A DNA stretch of 64,000 nt from Pirellulaceae bacterium (GCA_023382975.1 JAHDXO010000005.1:44876-108875); one strand, 5' to 3'. Shown: positions 1 through 45,990, numbered from the stretch's first letter. Program-made: numbers and translations. The notes: generated by a model from the sequence alone, not told the origin.

Positions 1-527
1 CCGGCAAGAAGAATATCTTGGAAGGCAGCAAAGCGGGGCTCACGTCCAAGGAGACCGAGATCAAACTGACCAACGTGGCCCGCGCCAGCCTGGAGGAATT
101 GCTGGACGACTACTACGATTATCTCCGCGCCCGCGATCTTCCGATTTGGGACAAGGATTCCCGCGAGGCCAAGTATGTCCGCCAACTCGGCCGCAAGACG
201 CCGCAGACGTACGAGAACTATCGCGAGTTCGTCGAGACGCGTCCGCCCGAGGTCGTCGCCAACATCGCCATCTGCCTGATCCACCAGACCAACTTTCTGA
301 TCGACCAGCAGCTTCGGCGTCTGGAACAGGATTTCGTGGAACAAGGCGGGTTGCGCGAGCGCATGACCCGCGTCCGCACCGCCTACCGCAGCGCGAAACC
401 GAGCCGACCCGCCAGCCATTCAACCTCGAACGACCGCCCCCAGGAAAAGCCTCCCGACACTCCTACCTCGCCTAATTCCCATTCCTCCCAAACCCGCAAG
501 CCCGGACCCTCCGGAGGCGAACGATGA
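1..527 (+). CDS. 5'-truncated CDS (frame 3..527) running off the left edge of the window. Probably a four-helix-bundle (23S rRNA IVS-like) protein with a '4HB suffix' domain, of the kind often embedded in Type I R-M operons between hsdM and hsdS.
   Basis: The frame is open from position 3 with no start codon inside the window. Its TGA stop overlaps the hsdS ATG (ATGA at 524-527). The sequence NVARASLEELLDDYYDYLRARDLPIWD...IHQTNFLIDQQLRRLEQDF resembles the 4HB-suffix family from memory; I could not run a search. Confidence 0.4.
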   Translation, partial: GKKNILEGSKAGLTSKETEIKLTNVARASLEELLDDYYDYLRARDLPIWDKDSREAKYVRQLGRKTPQTYENYREFVETRPPEVVANIAICLIHQTNFLIDQQLRRLEQDFVEQGGLRERMTRVRTAYRSAKPSRPASHSTSNDRPQEKPPDTPTSPNSHSSQTRKPGPSGGER

Positions 528-1810
528 AGCCGCCTGTCGAAATGACGAAAACCGGCGGACGTGACGCGACCACACGCCACATTCCCCCGACGCTTGCCTT
601 GGCTGTTGGAATGCCATCGAAATCGCCGCCGAATGGTTGGCGGTGGACGGCACTGACCAAACTCGCCCGCATGGAATCGGGGCATACGCCCAGCAGGAAA
701 CGTCCCGATTACTGGGGAGGCACAATACCATGGATTGGAATTCAGGATGCGAAATCCAACCACGGACGGCGCATCCATGACACCCACCAGAAGACAAATG
801 AACTGGGGATTGCCCATTCATCCGCGCGCATTCTGCCGGAGAATACCGTTTGTCTGTCGCGAACGGCATCGGTCGGGTACGTCGTTGTCATGGGGCGTCC
901 GATGGCAACCAGCCAAGACTTCGTGAATTGGGTCTGTTCGAGCGACCTCGATCACGATTTCTTGAAGTACCTGTTCATCGCAGAAGACGACAATCTTCTC
1001 AGGTTTTCCAGTGGCGCCGTACACCAAACCATCTATTTCCCCGAAGCCAAAGCCTTCCATATTTGCCATCCACCTCTTCCCGAGCAGCGGCGGATTGTGG
1101 GGATTCTGGACGCGGCGTTTGACGGGATCGCGGTGGCCAAAGCCAACGCCGAAAAGAACCTCCAAAACGCCCGTGCCCTCTTCGAAAGCCATCTGAACGC
1201 GGTGTTCAAGACGAAGAAATGGAAATGGCGAACTTTGGGCGAACTATGTCACGGGGTCGAATATGGTTCCTCTGCGAAATCAAGAAAAGAAGGGAAGGTA
1301 CCCGTTCTGCGAATGGGCAACATTCAGGACGGACGATTGAACTGGGAGAGTCTTGTCTACACGGATGACGACGAGGAAATCGCAAAATACCAACTCAAAC
1401 ATAATGATGTCTTGTTCAACCGAACAAACAGCCCGGAGTTGGTTGGCAAGACGGCAATCTACAAGAGCGAGATGCCGGCCATTTCTGCAGGTTATCTTAT
1501 TCGGATTCTTCGCAGGGTGGAGTTGTTGGATGCTGACTACTTGAATTACTTCCTCAACAGCCGAATTGCATTTGATTATGGCAAGACGGTTGTTATTTCA
1601 AGCGTAAACCAAGCCAATATCAACGGGGCAAAGCTGAGAGGTTATCCAATCCCAGCCCCTTCCTTGGCAGAACAAGAACGCATCGTCGATGAGCTTAATG
1701 GCCTGCGAACCGAAACCCAGCATCTCCAATCCATCTACCAGCGCAAGCTGGCGGCGTTGGACGAGTTGAAGAAGTCGCTGCTGGATCAAGCCTTCCGGGG
1801 TGAATTGTAG
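524..1810 (+). CDS. hsdS: Type I restriction-modification specificity subunit HsdS, with two target-recognition domains.
   Basis: 428-aa ORF. It has the conserved HsdS central segment (LPEQRRIVGILDAAFDGIAVAKANAEKNLQNARALFESHL) and C-terminal segment (LAEQERIVDELNGLRTETQHLQSIYQRKLAALDELKKSLLDQAF), with two variable TRDs between them. The ATGA overlap with the upstream gene and its position directly before hsdR support the call. Confidence 0.85.
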   Translation: MKPPVEMTKTGGRDATTRHIPPTLALAVGMPSKSPPNGWRWTALTKLARMESGHTPSRKRPDYWGGTIPWIGIQDAKSNHGRRIHDTHQKTNELGIAHSSARILPENTVCLSRTASVGYVVVMGRPMATSQDFVNWVCSSDLDHDFLKYLFIAEDDNLLRFSSGAVHQTIYFPEAKAFHICHPPLPEQRRIVGILDAAFDGIAVAKANAEKNLQNARALFESHLNAVFKTKKWKWRTLGELCHGVEYGSSAKSRKEGKVPVLRMGNIQDGRLNWESLVYTDDDEEIAKYQLKHNDVLFNRTNSPELVGKTAIYKSEMPAISAGYLIRILRRVELLDADYLNYFLNSRIAFDYGKTVVISSVNQANINGAKLRGYPIPAPSLAEQERIVDELNGLRTETQHLQSIYQRKLAALDELKKSLLDQAFRGEL

Positions 1811-1820
1811 CGGGGATACC

Positions 1821-4214
1821 ATGAACGAAGCCGAGACCCGAGCGGAGTATATCGATCCGGCGCTGGCGGCGGCGGGCTGGGGGGTGGTCGAGGGCAGCCA
1901 GATCCGGCGCGAGTACCCGATTACGCTGGGGCGGTTGGAAGGCTACGGACGGCGTGCCAAGCAATTGATGGCGGATTACGTGCTGGTGTACCGGAACACG
2001 AAGCTGGCGGTGGTCGAGGCGAAAGCGTGGGACGAGGAACTGACCGAGGGCGTGGCTCAAGCCAAGCAGTACGCCGGGAAACTGGCCATCCGCTTCGCCT
2101 ATTCGTCCAACGGGCAAGGCGTCTACGGCATCGACATGCAGGAAGGGACCGAGGGCGAGATCGACCGGTTCCCGACGCCCGACGAACTGTGGAACTCGAC
2201 CTTCGCCGCGCCGAACGCCTGGCGCGACCGGTTTGCCGCCGTGCCGTTCGAGGACAAGGGCGGGTACTTCCAGCCTCGTTACTATCAGGACATCGCGATC
2301 CAGCGCGTCCTAGAGGCGATCGGCATGGGCCGGAACCGCATCCTGCTGACGCTGGCCACCGGCACGGGCAAGACGTTCATCGCGTTTCAGATCGGTTGGA
2401 AACTGTTCTACAGCCGCTGGAATCTGGCGGAGTGGAACGCGGACGGCGATCCGTCGCGACGTCCCCGCATCCTGTTTCTGGCCGACCGCAACATCCTGGC
2501 GAACCAGGCGTTCAACGACTTCTCGCCCTTCCCCGAAGACGCACTGGTGCGGATCGACCCGGACAGCATCCGCAAGCGGGGCAAGGTGCCCAGGAACGGC
2601 AGCCTGTTCTTCACGATCTTCCAAACGTTCATGAGCGGCCCGCCGAAGAACGGGCAGCCCTCGCCCTACTTCGGCGACTACCCGTCCGACTTCTTCGACT
2701 TCATCGTGATCGACGAATGCCATCGGGGCGGAGCCAACGACGAGAGCACTTGGCGCGGCATCTTGGAGTACTTCGCGCCGGCTGTGCAGCTCGGCTTGAC
2801 CGCCACGCCCAAACGGCAGGACAACGTGGACACCTACGCCTATTTCGGCGAGCCGGTGTTCATCTACTCGCTCAAGGAAGGCATCAACGACGGCTTCCTG
2901 ACGCCGTTCAAGGTCAAGCAGATCCAGACCACGCTGGACGAGTATGTCTACACGTCCGACGACACGCTGGTCGAAGGCCAGATCGAGGCGGGCAAGGTCT
3001 ACGACGAACCGGACTTCAACAGGATCATCGAGATCCGGGAGCGCGAGCAGCACCGCGTCAAGCTGTTCATGGAGGCGATCGACCAGCGGGAAGAGACGCT
3101 GGTGTTCTGCGCCACGCAGGCGCACGCACTGCTGGTCCGCGACTTGGTTAACCAGATGAAAACCAGCACGGATCCGAACTAATGCCACCGGGTCACGGCG
3201 GACGACGGGGCACTGGGCGAACAGCATTTGCGGGATTTCCAGGACAACGAGAAGACGATCCCGACGATCCTGACGACCTCGCAGAAACTGTCCACCGGCG
3301 TGGATGCCCGCAACATCCGCAACATTGTGCTGATGCGGTCGGTCAACTCGATCATCGAGTTCAAGCAGATCATCGGCCGCGGCACGCGGCTGTACGACGG
3401 CAAGGACTACTTCACGATCTACGACTTCGTCAAGGCGCACCACCACTTCCGCGACCCCGAATGGGACGGCGAACCGGAGCCGGAAGATGTTTGCCCGAAG
3501 TGCGGCCAACAGCCGTGCCAGTGCGAGCGGCAACCGCCCAAGGTCTGCGAGCGGTGCGGGCAACGGCCGTGCGTGTGCGTCAAGGAACCGTGCCAGAAAT
3601 GCGGCAACTCGCCGTGCGAGTGCAAGAAGAAGGCGAAAGTCAAGCTTGCCGACGGCAAGGAGCGACGCATTCAGCACATGATGGTGACCAGCTATTGGCA
3701 CCCGGATGGAACACCGATGTCGGCCCAGCAGTTCCTGGAATTGCTGTACGGCAAGCTGCCCGACTTCTTCCAGGACGAAGCCGAACTGCGTGCCCTGTGG
3801 AGTGCCCCAGACACCCGCGCCAAGCTGCTGGCCGGGTTGGCCGAAAAGGGATTCGGGCCGGACCAGATGGCCGAGATGCAGCGGATCATCGATGCCGAGA
3901 AAAGCGATCTGTTCGACGTGCTCGCCTACGTGGCCTACGCCCGACCGGCGATCACCCGCGAGGAGCGGGCGGCGATTGCCAAGGTAGAAATCAGCCAGCG
4001 TTTCAATTCCAAGCAGCAAGCCTTCCTGGACTTCGTGTTGGCGCATTACGTCAGCGAAGGGGTGTACGAGCTGGACCAGGAAAAGCTCACCCCGCTGCTG
4101 CGTCTGCGCTACAACAACTCGATCGCCGACGCCATCGCCGACCTGGGCCGCCCGGAAGAGATCGGCACCGTGTTCGCAGGCTTCCAACGCTATCTGTACG
4201 AGATTGCGGTGTGA
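1821..4214 (+). pseudogene. hsdR: Type I restriction enzyme R subunit HsdR (DEAD/DEAH helicase-nuclease), interrupted by a single in-frame TAA at 3180-3182. It also carries a triple Cys-rich repeat in its C-terminal region.
   Basis: The N-terminus MNEAETRAEYIDPALAAAGW is the canonical HsdR start. The ATP-binding motif LATGTGKT, DEAH-box motif DECHRGG, and helicase motif VI (QIIGRGTRL) are all present. ORFs 1800..3182 and 3228..4214 are in the same frame and separated only by TAA. Read-through gives ...TDPN*CHRVTADDGALGEQHLRDFQDNEKTIPTILTTSQKLSTGVD..., a contiguous HsdR sequence. Confidence 0.85.
3489..3630 (+). repeat. Three tandem ~42-nt coding repeats inside hsdR that encode a Cys-rich motif, CxxCGxxPCxC, three times (zinc-ribbon-like).
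   Basis: Translation: CPKCGQQPCQCER / CERCGQRPCVCVK / CQKCGNSPCECKK. The repeats sit directly after helicase motif VI. Confidence 0.7.
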
Positions 4215-4262
4215 TTGTCGAAGAATTACCCTCGAAACAGGACTTGAAACGCTTGAAACGAT

Positions 4263-4298
4263 AAAAACCCGCGTTTTCCTTGGAGAAACGCGGGTTTT
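4263..4298. terminator. Bidirectional rho-independent terminator between the hsdR 3' end (+) and the tRNA-Val 3' end (-).
   Basis: AAAAACCCGCGTTTTC-cttggag-GAAACGCGGGTTTT: a perfect GC-rich stem (CCCGCG/CGCGGG) flanked by an A-run on one side and a T-run on the other. Confidence 0.7.
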
Positions 4299-4314
4299 CT
4301 GGGGTTCCTGCAAG

Positions 4315-4388
4315 TGGGCGACACGGGACTCGAACCTGTGACCTCCGCCGTGTGAAGACGGCGCTCTAACCAACTGAGCTAGTCGCCC
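4315..4388 (-). tRNA. tRNA-Val, anticodon CAC.
   Basis: Reverse complement: GGGCGAC-TA-GCTC-AGTTGGTTA-GAGC-G-CCGTC-TTCACAC-GGCGG-AGGTC-ACAGG-TTCGAGT-CCCGT-GTCGCCC-A. The cloverleaf has a 7-bp acceptor stem, T-loop TTCGAGT, U33, and A37. One A-C mismatch lies in the T-stem. CCA is not encoded. Confidence 0.8.
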
Positions 4389-5684: not shown

Positions 5685-5814
5685 CGAGGAAGAAACTCGC
5701 CTTCTGAAGCCGTTGCCGGATGGAACCAAGAGGGTTGCATCCGCGCCGCGAACTTGCCGCGTCGCTGGCAAATGACTTGAAGGGCTGGAATGACCAACCA
5801 ACCTCCAGCCCAAA

Positions 5815-5886: not shown

Positions 5887-6154
5887 TCCGCAGACGCAGA
5901 GTATGATACGCAATTCTTGAAGGACCACAACGGGGCATCCCGACGTGTCAGGTTGGAAGCGGCTCAGCATTCCACCAGCGACGTCACGATTGCACTACTT
6001 TTGGCGACATGCCAATCCTTGCACGGATCGAGTGTGAGGAGATCGGTGTTGGCTCCCCCGCGATCGAGGATTCTGCAGGGAAACCATCCTCGATCACCAA
6101 GTGGCTCGGATGCGACGGGGGAAGCGGGAGTGTCTGACCTTGAGCGAAACGGCG

Positions 6155-10140: not shown

Positions 10141-11600
10141 TCGGTCTCCCGCGGTTTGCGACCAGACCGAGCCTTGGCGGCCGGCTTTGCTCCGGGTTGG
10201 TAGTCGGGGTTGACTTCCGTCGGCAACGGGGCGGGAACTCGACCGATCCAGTCGAGCAAGTCGGCCAGCAGCTCGTTCCGCATTTCCCGGTTGGTCAACG
10301 CCAAATCGTTCCGCTCGCCTGGGTCTTCGGCGATGTTGTACAGCTCCACGGCCGAGTTGGTGTCGAGCTTATCCTGGCCGCCGTCGAGTTGCCATTCCTC
10401 GTGGTAGAGCAGCAGTTTCCAGTCGCCTTTGCGAACAACGCTCACCGGGCGGGTGCGGAACACCGGATCGCGGCCACGGGGCACGGGGCCGTCCAAATAA
10501 CCGGGGAAGTGCCAGAATATCGCTTGCCGGTCGAGGCTCTTTTCGCCTTGGAGCAACGGCAGCAGGCTTGCGCCATCCAGCGCCCGACTGGACGGCAATG
10601 GCGCACCGGCGGCAGCGAGGAACGTCGGATAGAAGTCGACGTTGATCACCGGCACGTCGCACGTTGTGCCTGCCCGCACCACGGCGGGCCAGCGAACGAC
10701 CATCGGTTCCCGAATGCCGCCCTCGTAGTAGCCGCCTTTCTTGCCACGGAGCGGTTCCTGCGACTCGGTGGTTCCCCCATTGTCCGAAGTGAACAGAACC
10801 AGCGTGTTCTGCTCCAGGTCGAGTTCCGCGAGCTTATCGAGCACGAGACCGACACTTGTGTCCAACTCGGCGAGACAAGCGGCAAAGGTCGAATTAGCAT
10901 GGCGTTCGCCCGGCGTCTTCTGCTGGAACTTGGCCTTGGTGGCCGGCTTCGCCTCCAGCGGTGTGTGAACGGCGTAGTGCGGGAGATACAGGAAGAAAGG
11001 ATGGTCTTTGTGCTGGTCAAGAAAGTCGCAAGCGGCCGTCGCGATGGAAAACGCCCCCTTCGGATCGTCCTCGGTAGTGCGGCGCCATCCGGCGGCGGAC
11101 ACCTGGACCACGTCGAAATGGCTTGCAGGAGCGCTGCCTCCGGACCCATCCAAATGCCATTTGCCAAACATGCCGGTGGCGTAGCCGGCGGCCTTCAACG
11201 CCTTGGGCAGGGTGAGATCCTCCGCACTCAGCCCGCCCCGATTGGGAACGGGCTGCATCCGCATCAGGTTGACGGGCCCGCGTTTCGTATTACCTACGGC
11301 GTAGACGCCGTGCCGCGGTGTGTACTGACCCGACAGCAGGCACGCGCGGCTCGGCGCACAATTGCCCGCCGCGGCATACGCTTGGCGGAAGATCATCCCG
11401 TCGCGGGCCAACCGGTCCAGATGGGGCGTCTCGAAGAAATCCGATCCCATGAATCCCGTTTCCTGCCAGCCCAGATCGTCGGCGAAGATCAACACGATGT
11501 TTGGGCGAGACGCCGCCGGGGCTCCGGATACCGAGGTGGGCAACACGCACAGCAGCAGGCCAAACCAACAAAATCCAACCGTGGTTTTCAAATTCATCAT
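10137..11600 (-). CDS. Arylsulfatase-family sulfatase (formylglycine-dependent), secreted.
   Basis: It has the motif IVLIFADDLGWQETGFMG and C-A-P-S-R (the Cys that becomes formylglycine), and an N-terminal signal peptide MMNLKTTVGFCWFGLLLCVL. The ORF track extends to 11639; the start at 11600 is inferred. Confidence 0.85.
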   Translation of the reverse strand: MMNLKTTVGFCWFGLLLCVLPTSVSGAPAASRPNIVLIFADDLGWQETGFMGSDFFETPHLDRLARDGMIFRQAYAAAGNCAPSRACLLSGQYTPRHGVYAVGNTKRGPVNLMRMQPVPNRGGLSAEDLTLPKALKAAGYATGMFGKWHLDGSGGSAPASHFDVVQVSAAGWRRTTEDDPKGAFSIATAACDFLDQHKDHPFFLYLPHYAVHTPLEAKPATKAKFQQKTPGERHANSTFAACLAELDTSVGLVLDKLAELDLEQNTLVLFTSDNGGTTESQEPLRGKKGGYYEGGIREPMVVRWPAVVRAGTTCDVPVINVDFYPTFLAAAGAPLPSSRALDGASLLPLLQGEKSLDRQAIFWHFPGYLDGPVPRGRDPVFRTRPVSVVRKGDWKLLLYHEEWQLDGGQDKLDTNSAVELYNIAEDPGERNDLALTNREMRNELLADLLDWIGRVPAPLPTEVNPDYQPGAKPAAKARSGRKPRETE

Positions 11601-11643
11601 CGAGGTGTTCCCTGGGACGAGTCTTGCGGAAATTCGCATCCGG

Positions 11644-11730
11644 GTAGCCGAATTCGTGAGAATTCGGATGAAATTGGACGATTCTGAATTCTCACGAATT
11701 CAGCTACGGGTCACGAATTCAACTGCGCGA
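11644..11730. repeat. Cluster of GAATTC-N4-GAATTC palindromic repeat units (REP-like). Two copies are in inverted orientation and there is a partial third.
   Basis: gtagccGAATTCgtgaGAATTCgg ... tctGAATTCtcacGAATTCagctac ... tcacGAATTCaa. The same core recurs at ~12782, ~21547, ~53858, and ~63832. Confidence 0.8.
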
Positions 11731-43396: not shown

Positions 43397-43882
43397 TCAA
43401 CATGCCGTCCGCCTTTTCTGCGCGGCCACGAATCTTTTCTGTTTTCTCCGCGGTTCGGTTTGACACGGAACGAACCTGACATAGGTTTCAAGTGCGGGGC
43501 TGAGGTGCCGAAGGCGCAGCAGTCCCGGTCAGGATGCGAGTCCTGAAAAGGCCTGTCGCCTCCGATCCTCGACAAAGGCAAACCAGTTGCAAAGCTGGGA
43601 CGCAAAGCCGAGGGCCGCTCGGACGTTCGCTCCGGGCGGCAGCCTGGCTGCCGAAAGGATAGATCGCGTTGTTCGCGGAAGTGGTGCGGTCATGGAGCGG
43701 CCGTACGAGGAAAAGAGGCTGGTGTTTCGTGTGTGTGGTAGAGGTCCGCTGGCCGCACGGCAGGCCGAGGCGTCGACAAACGTCTCGCGACCGGAGGAAC
43801 TCGGCGTCCCCTTTTCCCAGATAGCCTTCGCGGGCCGTGCTTGAATCGGCGCCGCGGACGGCGAAATCCATTGGAGGTTGTT

Positions 43883-44298: not shown

Positions 44299-45990
44299 AT
44301 GAATGCTCCGTTGAATTGGAACAGCAGGAACCTGACGCACGGTTGGCAGCGCGGCGTCACCGCGTTTTACTATGGACTGGGACTGACCGAGGCGGATTTT
44401 GACAAGCCGCAGATCGGGATCGGCGTGCCGTTGCTGGACGGGAATCTCTGCAACGTCCACGCCTACGACCTGGCTCAGCGGATCGCGGACGGTTGCCGCC
44501 GCGCGGACATGATCGGTTTTCCGTTCGGCGTGCCCGCGGTCAGTGACAACATCACGCAAGGGCACGAAGGCGGCAACGCCAGTCTTCCGTCCCGCAACAT
44601 GATCGCCAACGGGGCCGAGTGCGTGGTCAGCGCGCACGGCTACGACGCGTTGATCGGACTGCACCACTGCGACAAGAACGGTCCCGGATTCGCCATGGCG
44701 CTGGCCCGCATGAATTATCCGGGATTGCTGGTCAGCGGCGGCACGATCATGCCGGGTTGCCACCGGGGCGAGGAGATCTCGATCCTGGACGTCTACGACG
44801 CACAGGCCGCGGTCGCCGTCGGCAACATGGACCCGTCCGAAGCGGAAGAGATCCTGCGGACCGCCTGTCCCGGGGTCGGCGGTTGCGGCATTGCGGCTTC
44901 GTTCAACACCTGGGGCGTGGCCATGGAAGCCATCGGGCTGATGCTGCCCTACAGCAGCGCGATTCCGGCGATCGACGAAGCCAAGCACGAGGAATGCATC
45001 CGGGCCGGCCAAATCATGCATGGCGTGCTGCAGCAAGGACTACGCCCGCGCGACATCCTCACGCGCCGCGCGTTCGAGAACGCGGCGACGGCCATCGCCG
45101 CGATCGGCGGTTCGACCAACGGCGTGCTGCACCTGCTGGCGCTGGCTCGCGAAGCCGATGTCGAGTTCACCCTGCGCGACATGCAGGCAATTTTCCGCCG
45201 GACGCCCGTGTTGTGCTGTTTCGCCCCGCGCGGCAAGAAGACGATGGTCGACATGCACCGGATCGGCGGCACCCCGGTGTTGTTGAAGCACCTGTGGCGC
45301 GCCGGTCTGCTGGACGGCGACACCATGACCGTGGTGGGCAAGACGCTGGGCCAGGTCGCCGCCGAGGCGCCCGATCTACCCGACGACCAGCAACTGATCG
45401 TCCCGGCCGATGCCCCCTTCAAACCGTTTGCCGACGTGCAGATCTGTTTCGGCAACCTGGCGCCGGACGGCATCGTGTTCAAGGTTTCCAGCATGCAGGA
45501 GCCCCGGTTCCGCGGCGTCGCGTTGTGCTTCGACGACGCCAAGGACGTGGCCGACGCGGTCGAATCCAAGCGGATCCAGCCGGGCAGCGTCATCGTGTTG
45601 CGTTACCTGGGACCGGTCGCATCTGGAATGCCCGAGGTGTTGGTCGCATCGGCCGCACTGGCGGTTCCGGAACTGGACGGGAAAGTCGCCCTGGTCTCCG
45701 ACACCCGCGTGTCCGGCGTTTCGCACGGCGCGATCGGCGTGCATTGTGCGCCCGAGGCCGCGGTGGGGGGCGCCATCGCGCTGGTCGCCGACGGCGACGA
45801 AATCTCGTTCGACCTGCTGGCCGGCGAAGTCACGTTGCACGTCGACGACGCAGAACTCGGCCGCCGCCGTCAGCAGTGGCGGCCCATACCCCGCAAATCG
45901 CGCCGCGGTTACCTGCTGGACTTCGCCGCCACCGCCGCACAAGCCAACCACGGCTGTGTCAGCCGCATCCTGTACCCGGACTGCGCGTGA
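44299..45990 (+). CDS. ilvD: Dihydroxy-acid dehydratase (IlvD/EDD family).
   Basis: 563 aa. It has the Fe-S cluster Cys pattern (CDKNGPG...CPGVGGCG) and similarity to IlvD along the full length. Confidence 0.85.
   Translation: MNAPLNWNSRNLTHGWQRGVTAFYYGLGLTEADFDKPQIGIGVPLLDGNLCNVHAYDLAQRIADGCRRADMIGFPFGVPAVSDNITQGHEGGNASLPSRNMIANGAECVVSAHGYDALIGLHHCDKNGPGFAMALARMNYPGLLVSGGTIMPGCHRGEEISILDVYDAQAAVAVGNMDPSEAEEILRTACPGVGGCGIAASFNTWGVAMEAIGLMLPYSSAIPAIDEAKHEECIRAGQIMHGVLQQGLRPRDILTRRAFENAATAIAAIGGSTNGVLHLLALAREADVEFTLRDMQAIFRRTPVLCCFAPRGKKTMVDMHRIGGTPVLLKHLWRAGLLDGDTMTVVGKTLGQVAAEAPDLPDDQQLIVPADAPFKPFADVQICFGNLAPDGIVFKVSSMQEPRFRGVALCFDDAKDVADAVESKRIQPGSVIVLRYLGPVASGMPEVLVASAALAVPELDGKVALVSDTRVSGVSHGAIGVHCAPEAAVGGAIALVADGDEISFDLLAGEVTLHVDDAELGRRRQQWRPIPRKSRRGYLLDFAATAAQANHGCVSRILYPDCA

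What the first reader, a model, noticed from the sequence alone, without database searches (positions are those of the whole stretch)
3150..3240. hsdR is interrupted by a single in-frame TAA at the position of a conserved Tyr codon, giving an R-minus Type I R-M system
ORFs 1800..3182 and 3228..4214 are in the same reading frame and are separated only by TAA (3180-3182). Read-through gives ...KTSTDPN-*-CHRVTADDGALGEQHLRDFQDNEKTIPTIL.... By my recollection, Type I R subunits conserve a D-P-(N/S)-Y-C/T-x-R-(I/V)-T-G segment here, so the stop sits where a Tyr codon (TAY) is expected, which is a one-base change. Everything else in HsdR (the N-terminal nuclease region, motifs I, II and VI) and hsdS look intact. 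The result would be a modification-proficient, restriction-deficient system, a known route to relaxed restriction, or a phase-off state.
Basis: partly seen in the sequence, partly recalled or inferred. Interest (0 to 1): 0.7.

Follow-up and report, generated by a model that had tools for sequence, protein, structure and literature searches.

The report
Broken restriction gene in a dead R-M locus
A single C-to-A change has turned a conserved tyrosine codon of a Type I restriction gene into a stop codon, and because the partner methylase gene in the same genome has already lost its catalytic domain, this is ordinary decay of a defunct defence locus, not a "modifies but does not cut" state.

Summary
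hsdR (ATG 1821 to TGA 4214, EcoAI/FtnUII family, Type IB) carries one in-frame TAA at 3180-3182 (codon 454). At that column 119 of 120 homologues have Tyr and one has Phe. Three sister contigs, 98.8-99.3% identical, read TAC, so the change is C to A at 3182. The stop lies in the second RecA-like domain, between helicase motifs IV and V.

The window matches a deposited Pirellulaceae MAG in which hsdR is annotated as two proteins (MCL4201758.1 and MCL4201759.1). Two genes upstream of hsdR, just outside the window, MCL4201755.1 is a 162-aa HsdM remnant. Residues 1-86 are fused in frame to the last 76, and the whole N6-methyltransferase domain (326 residues) is missing. The sister strain has the identical remnant but an intact hsdR. 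The locus is therefore predicted M-minus and R-minus, not M-plus R-minus.

There is no repeat tract at the stop, so phase variation is not supported. TAA terminates three other coding-like ORFs in the window, so recoding is not supported.

hsdR pN/pS between the two strains is 0.13 (flanking genes 0.10), so both lesions look recent. I could not check reads. This is an ordinary, known kind of pseudogenisation, of low interest.

The parts
3..527 (+). 3' part (last 174 codons) of a four-helix-bundle / four-helix-bundle-suffix gene inserted between hsdM and hsdS. The gene runs off the left end of the window. The full product is 257 aa (MCL4201756.1).
   Evidence: TIGR04258 at E 1e-24. The full-length sister copy also hits TIGR02436 and PF05635. 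NCBI accession; 256/257 identical to the sister copy.
524..1810 (+). hsdS, specificity subunit, 428 aa, intact, with two target-recognition domains (MCL4201757.1).
   Evidence: PF01420 matched in 2 stretches at E 5e-32. Protein identical to that of sister contigs L001-L003. Only one synonymous SNP against L001.
1821..3182 (+). hsdR N-terminal fragment, 453 codons plus the premature TAA. It holds the PD-(D/E)xK nuclease domain, RecA-like domain 1 (motifs I GTGKT, II DECH, III TAT) and the first part of RecA-like domain 2 (motif IV). Deposited as MCL4201758.1, 'DEAD/DEAH box helicase family protein'.
   Evidence: NF046051 positions 1-435; ResIII at E 2e-33. (exact match to MCL4201758.1). Domain limits by alignment to 3H1T and its paper PMC2777439.
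3180..3182 (+). Premature ochre codon TAA, derived from TAC (Tyr454) by C to A at 3182. The next base is T.
   Evidence: Tyr in 119/120 homologues. TAC in L001, L002 and L003.
3183..4214 (+). Remainder of hsdR (codons 455-797 plus TGA): motif V (TTSQKLSTGVD), motif VI (QIIGRGTR), a Cys-rich module and the EcoEI_R_C domain. It is still an open frame. The deposited record calls a 328-aa CDS from TTG 3228 (MCL4201759.1, hypothetical protein KJ000_04640).
   Evidence: PF08463 at E 2e-31; NF046051 positions 446-768. P0254 equals window 3228-4214 exactly.
3492..3623 (+). Three tandem CxxCGxxPCxC units (HsdR residues 558-601), a probable metal-binding module between RecA-like domain 2 and the C-terminal domain. 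All 12 Cys are intact downstream of the stop.
   Evidence: All 12 Cys are present in 119-120 of 120 homologues.
4258..4300 (.). GC-rich hairpin (AAAACCCGCGTTT...AAACGCGGGTTTT) between the end of hsdR and the 3' end of tRNA-Val. It is a probable bidirectional terminator, so hsdR is the last gene of the unit and the stop has no downstream polar target.
   Evidence: Read directly. It did not reach the T-run threshold of the terminator scan.
4314..4388 (-). tRNA-Val(CAC). Its 3' end faces the end of the R-M cassette.

Best explanation
The locus is the remnant of a Type IB (EcoAI/FtnUII-family) restriction-modification cassette, ordered hsdM, four-helix-bundle gene, hsdS, hsdR. It sits next to tRNA-Val in the chromosome of a Pirellulaceae bacterium. 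Two lesions are present in this genome. First, an in-frame 978-bp deletion between two imperfect direct repeats of about 25 nt removed the whole catalytic domain of hsdM, leaving a 162-aa N-terminus/C-terminus fusion. This lesion is shared with the sister strain. Second, and only in this genome, a C-to-A transversion changed Tyr454 (TAC) of hsdR to TAA. Translation should stop inside RecA-like domain 2. The product keeps the nuclease domain and RecA-like domain 1 but lacks motifs V and VI and the C-terminal domain. By analogy with other Type I R subunits that domain is thought to dock HsdR onto the methylase core, so ATP-driven translocation and cleavage should be lost. HsdR acts only when bound to an M2S1 core, and the methylase has no catalytic domain. 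The system is therefore predicted to neither modify nor restrict, and the stop is a further neutral step in its decay. Shown here: the sequence facts, the conservation, the sister-strain states and the co-occurrence of both lesions in one deposited contig. Inferred: loss of activity, neutrality and the order of events.
For: One TAA in an otherwise open 797-codon frame. Family assignment NF046051 with the two halves contiguous on the profile. Tyr in 119/120 homologues and in 3H1T. Sister contigs L001-L003 read TAC and L001 encodes an intact 797-aa HsdR. The window's proteins equal MCL4201756-61, 63 and 64 of one 263,443-bp NCBI MAG contig, and MCL4201755.1 is the 162-aa HsdM remnant, identical to L001's. 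Alignment of the remnant with 488-aa HsdMs shows residues 87-412 missing, including the AxGxG-type and NPPF motifs. The direct repeats flank the deleted segment in the intact genes. Other loci with such mini-hsdM genes are visibly eroded: hsdS and hsdR are reduced to fragments or absent. A third assembly of the sister strain has an additional stop inside the mini-hsdM. No second hsdM of this family is in the window. There is no repeat tract at the stop. TAA terminates three other coding-like ORFs in the window. The position of the stop in RecA-like domain 2 comes from the 3H1T alignment and the domain limits in PMC2777439.
Against: Raw reads and coverage of the MAG could not be examined, so a consensus error or a minority variant is not excluded. 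hsdR differs between the two strains by 16 synonymous and 7 non-synonymous changes, giving pN/pS 0.13 against 0.10 in flanking genes and P about 3e-6 against neutrality. That is unexpected if hsdM had been dead since before the strains split. Either the deletion allele is young and spread by recombination, or some constraint on hsdR persisted. A compatible hsdM elsewhere in the genome cannot be ruled out from a 64-kb window. No activity was measured.
Confidence: 0.78

Rival explanations
1. Consensus or assembly error, or a minority population variant. On this reading the true dominant sequence is TAC, and hsdR is intact as in the sister strain.
For: The source is a metagenome-assembled genome. 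All three sister assemblies have TAC. C to A (G to T on the other strand) is also the typical oxidative-damage artefact, and another assembly at about 3.5x coverage shows a G-to-T stop in the mini-hsdM. The rest of hsdR shows no decay: deviations at conserved columns are within the normal range.
Against: Single-base substitution errors in a consensus are rare compared with the 141 real SNPs that separate the strains over 11.8 kb. The site is not a homopolymer. The window strain also carries a private change at an otherwise invariant column (K425E), so private changes in this gene are real. Even if the stop were an error, the locus would still lack a methylase.
Confidence: 0.12
2. One reading: a restriction-minus, modification-plus system in which M2S1 still methylates the HsdS-specified motif while restriction is relaxed.
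For: hsdS is intact and identical to the sister strain's. Nonsense mutations in hsdR are a known natural route to r-minus m-plus strains, for example in S. aureus RN4220. That example is from my own knowledge; only lists papers that mention hsdR, RN4220 and a premature stop codon together, and none of them was read. hsdR shows a purifying-selection pattern until recently.
Against: The cognate hsdM in the same contig lacks residues 87-412, the entire N6_Mtase domain. No other hsdM of the family is in the 64-kb window.
Confidence: 0.05
3. A functional arrangement: a phase-variable off state, programmed read-through or suppression of the TAA, or a genuinely split HsdR whose two halves reassemble.
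For: The downstream frame is still open, and a TTG at 3228 could restart translation.
Against: There is no simple repeat at or near the stop. All of the 120 best homologues are single polypeptides. The break lies inside RecA-like domain 2, between motifs IV and V. The TAA is followed by T, which to my knowledge is the most efficient termination context known in E. coli. TAA is used as an ordinary terminator in the window. The sister strain has a plain TAC.
Confidence: 0.02
4. The methylase-less cassette (mini-HsdM, four-helix-bundle protein, HsdS, HsdR) was still doing something under selection, and the stop is a recent loss of that function.
For: hsdR pN/pS is 0.13 between two strains that share the identical hsdM deletion. 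The mini-HsdM keeps both termini in frame. Mini-hsdM ORFs recur in public data.
Against: Other mini-hsdM loci have lost hsdS and hsdR. Mini-HsdMs with the same junction are each closer to full-type HsdMs than to one another, and their crossover points differ, so they are independent accidents and not a conserved family. One assembly has a stop inside the mini-hsdM. I know of no mechanism by which HsdR acts without a methylase core.
Confidence: 0.03

Closest known systems
Type IB restriction-modification systems (EcoAI / EcoEI / FtnUII family)
   Same: hsdR matches the NCBIfam equivalog model NF046051 over its whole length once the two halves are joined. It has the EcoEI_R_C C-terminal domain, the PD-(D/E)xK nuclease motif and the DEAD-box motifs. 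hsdS has two target-recognition domains. In relatives the gene order is hsdM, hsdS, hsdR.
   Different: Here hsdR is interrupted by TAA at codon 454, and the hsdM of the same genome lacks its catalytic domain. This is a remnant, not a working member.
Natural hsdR nonsense or deletion mutants that give r-minus m-plus strains (for example S. aureus RN4220, Sau1 hsdR)
   Same: A premature stop in the R subunit of a Type I system with hsdS left intact. This is from my own knowledge; only lists papers that hold these terms, and none was read.
   Different: In those strains HsdM and HsdS still methylate. Here the methylase domain is gone, so the r-minus m-plus phenotype is not expected.
HsdR N-terminal fragment of Vibrio vulnificus YJ016 (PDB 3H1T; PMC2777439)
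   Same: It is the closest solved relative (E 2e-132) and aligns over residues 1-556. It has the same three-domain layout (nuclease, RecA-like 1, RecA-like 2) and the same Tyr at the stop column (...hpDYvaRVT...).
   Different: It is an intact protein that was cleaved during crystallisation. It serves only to map the stop to RecA-like domain 2.
Deletion between short direct repeats (replication slippage or illegitimate recombination) as a route to gene decay
   Same: The hsdM deletion joins two imperfect repeats of about 25 nt that lie 978 bp apart, and it is in frame.
   Different: The same pair of repeats appears to have been used repeatedly in unrelated lineages of this hsdM clade. To my knowledge this has not been described for Type I methylases.

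Membership tests
Type IB (EcoAI/FtnUII) HsdR | Full-length match to the family's equivalog model (NF046051, cut-off 550 bits) | tested here: inconclusive
   The fragments score 526 bits (profile positions 1-435) and 267 bits (positions 446-768). Each is below the cut-off alone, but together they cover the model contiguously. The joined read-through sequence was not itself scored against NF046051. It is 76-84% identical over 99-100% of its length to 120 full-length homologues.
Type IB (EcoAI/FtnUII) HsdR | Uninterrupted reading frame giving one polypeptide of about 800 aa | tested here: not met
   TAA at 3180-3182. All of the 120 best homologues are 783-816 aa single chains.
Type IB (EcoAI/FtnUII) HsdR | PD-(D/E)xK nuclease residues and DEAD-box motifs I, II, III, V and VI | tested here: met
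   aDY...VVEAKa aligns with Asp77/Glu92/Lys94 of 3H1T. GTGKT, DECH, TATP, TTSQKLSTGVD and QIIGRGTR are all present in the read-through translation.
Type IB (EcoAI/FtnUII) HsdR | C-terminal EcoEI_R_C domain | tested here: met
   PF08463 at E 2e-31, over profile positions 1-163 of 163. It lies downstream of the stop, so it would not be translated as part of HsdR.
Functional Type I R-M system | HsdM with an N6-adenine methyltransferase catalytic domain (PF02384; SAM-binding and NPPF motifs) | tested here: not met
   The cognate HsdM of the source contig (MCL4201755.1, 162 aa) has only a partial HsdM_N domain plus the C-terminal tail. Residues 87-412 of the 488-aa relatives are absent. No other hsdM of this family is in the window.
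Functional Type I R-M system | HsdS with two target-recognition domains | tested here: met
   PF01420 matched in 2 stretches; 428 aa with no interruption.
Functional Type I R-M system | Methylation of a bipartite target and ATP-dependent restriction | not testable with these tools
   This needs methylome data or biochemistry.
Phase-variable Type I system | A simple-sequence repeat in the coding region, or invertible hsdS copies with a recombinase | tested here: not met
   No tandem repeat overlaps the stop. The only arrays in 2900-3700 are two 9-nt near-duplications at 3254-3276 and 3308-3325. A tblastn with one relative's HsdS found only the one hsdS gene in the window, and the calls made on sister contig L001 show no recombinase next to the cassette.

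The most novel reading that the evidence does not exclude
The hsdM genes of this very widespread and highly conserved Type IB clade carry a built-in pair of direct repeats (peptide GDDLxEFV ... DDDLAEFV) that repeatedly excises the catalytic domain in frame. The resulting mini-HsdM keeps the N-terminal and C-terminal regions, which might still contact HsdR and HsdS. It might then work as a methylase-less adaptor or as a dominant-negative regulator. In that case hsdR stayed under selection after the deletion (pN/pS 0.13), and the TAA would be a recent loss, or a rescue from self-restriction, and not neutral decay.
Probability: 0.05. Interest if true: 0.55.

Novelty: already known. Interest (0 to 1): 0.15.

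Why it matters
It matters little in itself. Nonsense mutations and deletions in restriction-modification genes are common, and this example is already visible in the public record as two adjacent CDS. The check is useful mainly as a correction. An annotator who looked only at hsdS and hsdR would predict a strain that methylates a specific motif but does not restrict. The genome context instead predicts no methylation from this locus. That matters for anyone interpreting methylome data from this Pirellulaceae lineage or hoping to transform it. One side observation may deserve a short look by people who study R-M turnover. The catalytic domain of this hsdM clade seems to be lost again and again through the same pair of short direct repeats.

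Tried and rejected
1. I looked for the window's own DNA upstream. Two exact-pattern scans of genome contigs and two of metagenome contigs found nothing. Position look-ups of four window-specific proteins were not on record. The exact-sequence cluster table then solved the problem by giving the NCBI accessions.

2. I considered TAA recoding and rejected it. TAA ends three other coding-like ORFs in the window, and 15 other checked genes have no internal stops.

3. I considered phase variation and rejected it. There is no repeat at the site.

4. I considered a bipartite hsdR family and rejected it for this clade. All of the 120 best homologues are single chains.

5. I considered that the 162-aa HsdM might belong to a conserved functional family. 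This was rejected as the main reading. Loci that carry such genes are eroded. The mini proteins are polyphyletic and have different crossover points.

6. I looked for long-term relaxed constraint in hsdR and did not find it. Deviations at conserved columns are within the homologue range, and pN/pS is 0.13.

7. The terminator scan did not report the hairpin after hsdR. That hairpin is described from direct reading only.

8. Structure prediction and fold search were not used, because a solved homologue (3H1T) already maps the site.

Full report
**1. The observation**

Window 1821-4214 translates into 797 codons with a single internal stop, TAA at 3180-3182 (codon 454). The context is ...VNQMKTSTDPN*CHRVTADDGALGEQHLRDFQ.... 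The most likely true start is ATG 1821, eleven bases after the TAG of hsdS.

The N-terminal part hits Pfam ResIII, SWI2_SNF2 and DEAD, and weakly HSDR_N. The C-terminal part hits EcoEI_R_C. Against NCBIfam the two parts match the equivalog model NF046051 (EcoAI/FtnUII family Type I restriction enzyme subunit R) at profile positions 1-435 and 446-768. They are therefore two contiguous halves of one Type IB hsdR. hsdS (524-1810, 428 aa) is intact and has two target-recognition domains.

**2. Is the stop at a conserved Tyr codon?**

Yes. A search with the read-through protein returned thousands of relatives. The best 120 are 76-84% identical, 783-816 aa long, and all single polypeptides.

In a MAFFT alignment the stop column is Tyr in 119 and Phe in 1. 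It lies within the block D-P-N-Y-C-(Q/H)-R-V-T-A-(N/D)-D-G. The closest solved structure, the Vibrio vulnificus HsdR fragment 3H1T (E 2e-132), also has Tyr there.

According to the paper on that structure (PMC2777439), RecA-like domain 2 spans Ala372-Val590. The aligned position falls inside it, between motif IV (LVFCAT) and motif V (TTSQKLSTGVD). A product ending at residue 453 keeps the nuclease domain and RecA-like domain 1. It lacks motifs V and VI and the C-terminal helical domain. By analogy with other Type I R subunits, that domain is thought to dock HsdR onto the methylase core.

**3. Sister strains**

An exact look-up of the HsdS protein found three contigs: L001 (JGI 3300028486) and L002 and L003 (Logan SRR14117729 and SRR14117728). 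They are identical to one another and 98.8-99.3% identical to the window, without gaps. All three read TAC at 3180-3182. L001 encodes an intact 797-aa HsdR. The window allele is therefore derived by C to A at 3182.

The other 23 hsdR differences between the strains are 16 synonymous and 7 non-synonymous. This gives pN/pS 0.13, against 0.10 for six flanking housekeeping genes, and it departs from neutrality at P about 3e-6. The window's HsdR deviates at 5 of 455 columns that are at least 95% conserved, plus the stop. That is within the range of the homologues, whose mean is 4.3. The stop is thus a recent, isolated lesion.

**4.

The window begins inside a four-helix-bundle gene (TIGR04258/TIGR02436) that lies between hsdM and hsdS. 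In L001 the gene upstream of it encodes only 162 aa.

Aligned with the 488-aa HsdMs of two relatives (Lignipirellula cremea and an ENA contig), this protein is residues 1-86 joined in frame to the last 76 residues. The entire catalytic domain (326 residues) is missing, including the SAM-binding and NPPF motifs. In the intact genes the deleted segment is flanked by imperfect direct repeats of about 25 nt, GGCGACGAYCTGG.CGAGTTCGTC, encoding GDDLxEFV and DDDLAEFV. These repeats lie 978 bp apart, which explains an in-frame deletion.

**5. Does the window's own genome have that deletion?**

DNA scans and position look-ups did not find the source. The exact-sequence cluster table did.

The window's proteins are deposited from one 263,443-bp contig of an NCBI MAG, 'Pirellulaceae bacterium', under consecutive accessions:
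- MCL4201756.1: four-helix-bundle suffix protein
- MCL4201757.1: HsdS
- MCL4201758.1: 453-aa 'DEAD/DEAH box helicase family protein', equal to window 1821-3179
- MCL4201759.1: 328-aa hypothetical protein KJ000_04640, equal to window TTG 3228-4214
- MCL4201760.1, 761, 763 and 764: the flanking genes

MCL4201755.1, on the same contig and one number before, is the 162-aa HsdM remnant. It is identical to L001's, including its unusual TDDDL junction. Both lesions therefore coexist in the window's genome. A tblastn with a full-length HsdM of a relative found nothing else in the 64 kb.

**6. Interpretation**

A Type I endonuclease is HsdR bound to an M2S1 core. This is established knowledge, reviewed in PMC3874165. 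I queried that review only for its family classification, so the subunit statement rests on my own knowledge. With no methyltransferase domain, the locus should neither modify nor restrict.

The stop is best read as a further step in the decay of an already defunct cassette.

Decay is also what other loci show. One contig with a 163-aa mini-hsdM has only fragments of hsdS and hsdR left. Two others have none. A low-coverage assembly of the sister strain has an extra GAA-to-TAA stop inside the mini-hsdM.

- **Phase variation** is not supported. No tandem repeat overlaps the stop.
- **Recoding** is not supported. TAA terminates three other coding-like ORFs, and the 15 other checked genes have no internal stop.
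- **Read-through** is unlikely. The base after the TAA is T, which to my knowledge is the strongest termination context in E. coli.
- **Polarity** is unlikely. hsdR is the last gene before a hairpin and a convergent tRNA-Val, so no polar effect is expected.

**7. What remains open**

*Reads.* I could not inspect them. A consensus error or a minority allele remains possible. I put this at about 0.12. C to A is also the oxidative-damage artefact type.

*The selection pattern.* Both strains share the same hsdM deletion, yet hsdR shows a purifying-selection pattern across their divergence. If hsdR had been useless since before the split, roughly 55 non-synonymous differences would be expected at pS 0.03. 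Seven are seen. There are several possible readings:
- The deletion allele is young and moved between strains by recombination. A nearly SNP-free tract at 390-1939, covering hsdS, shows that recombination acts here (P about 1e-8).
- The SNPs were imported from functional alleles.
- A compatible hsdM exists elsewhere in the genome.
- Some selection on hsdR persisted.

I could not discriminate among these.

**8. Side observation**

The search with the mini-HsdM returned many short HsdM derivatives that retain both termini. Several have a junction at the same repeat, and others have different junctions. Each same-junction mini is closer, over its N-terminal 86 residues, to full-type HsdMs than to any other mini. 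The crossover points also differ: TGDDL in most, TDDDL here. The deletion is therefore recurrent, a hot spot, and not a conserved protein family. The comparison set was selected by similarity to the L001 protein, so this result is indicative only.

**9. Verdict**

This is an ordinary, already known kind of event, the pseudogenisation of a restriction-modification locus, and it is already present in the public annotation as two CDS. Interest is low (0.15).

Noticed in passing
outside the window: L001 8746-9234 (equals MCL4201755.1 of the source contig); L005 3040-4503 and L006 2449-3912 for intact genes: hsdM of this Type IB clade has an imperfect direct repeat of about 25 nt, 978 bp apart, flanking its catalytic domain. 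Many independent in-frame deletion derivatives ('mini-HsdM', 143-220 aa) exist in public data. Several use the same repeat but with different crossover points, which suggests a recurrent deletion hot spot.
   Followed up: partly
window 390-1939: There is only 1 SNP against the sister strain across hsdS and its edges, where about 21 are expected from the rest of the 11.8-kb alignment (P about 1e-8). This suggests a recent recombination tract or sweep covering the specificity gene.
   Followed up: partly
window 3492-3623 (HsdR residues 558-601): Three tandem CxxCGxxPCxC units lie between RecA-like domain 2 and the EcoEI_R_C domain. All 12 cysteines are present in 119-120 of 120 homologues. This is probably a triple metal-binding module of this HsdR clade. 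Its function is unknown to me.
   Followed up: partly
window 1821-4214 and homologues P0001-P0120: This HsdR clade is unusually conserved. Identity is 76-84% among proteins whose source names span Pirellulaceae, Acidobacteriales, Nitrospira, Deltaproteobacteria/Syntrophobacteraceae and Candidatus Obscuribacterales. This implies wide horizontal spread.
   Followed up: no
window 3-527 (and L001 9231-10004): A four-helix-bundle plus 'suffix' protein gene (TIGR02436 and TIGR04258) with a Pro/Ser/Thr-rich tail is inserted between hsdM and hsdS. It overlaps the hsdS start by 4 nt. All 7 SNPs against the sister strain are synonymous. Similar genes follow the mini-hsdM in one other locus (L007), and a same-sized gene with no Pfam match does so in another (L010).
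   Followed up: no
window 4314-4388 (-): tRNA-Val(CAC) differs from the sister strain at three T-stem positions (4323, 4325, 4337). The changes are not neatly compensatory, and each allele seems to carry one A-C mismatch at a different pair. The 3' end of the tRNA faces the R-M cassette, as at island insertion sites, but no integrase is nearby.
   Followed up: partly
window 43568-43656 (+): An Rfam c-di-GMP-I-GGC riboswitch variant (71.8 bits, gathering score 59) lies about 640 nt upstream of a dihydroxy-acid/6-phosphogluconate dehydratase-like ORF (44299-45990).
   Followed up: no
L018 2380 (ENA ERZ20300939 NODE_6179, about 3.5x coverage): This is the same strain as L001 but with GAA to TAA (E92*) inside the mini-hsdM. 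It is either further decay or a low-coverage G-to-T error. The contig end also carries a cluster of mismatches.
   Followed up: partly
window 11555-11651; also 5712-5811 and 6009-6078: Dense SNP clusters against the sister strain, with 26 in about 100 bp at 11555-11651, the 5' end and upstream region of a sulfatase gene. These are probably recombination imports or hypervariable intergenic DNA.
   Followed up: no
whole window: Stop-codon usage is strongly skewed. Of 39 coding-like ORFs, 29 end in TGA, 6 in TAG and 4 in TAA, one of the four being the hsdR fragment.
   Followed up: yes
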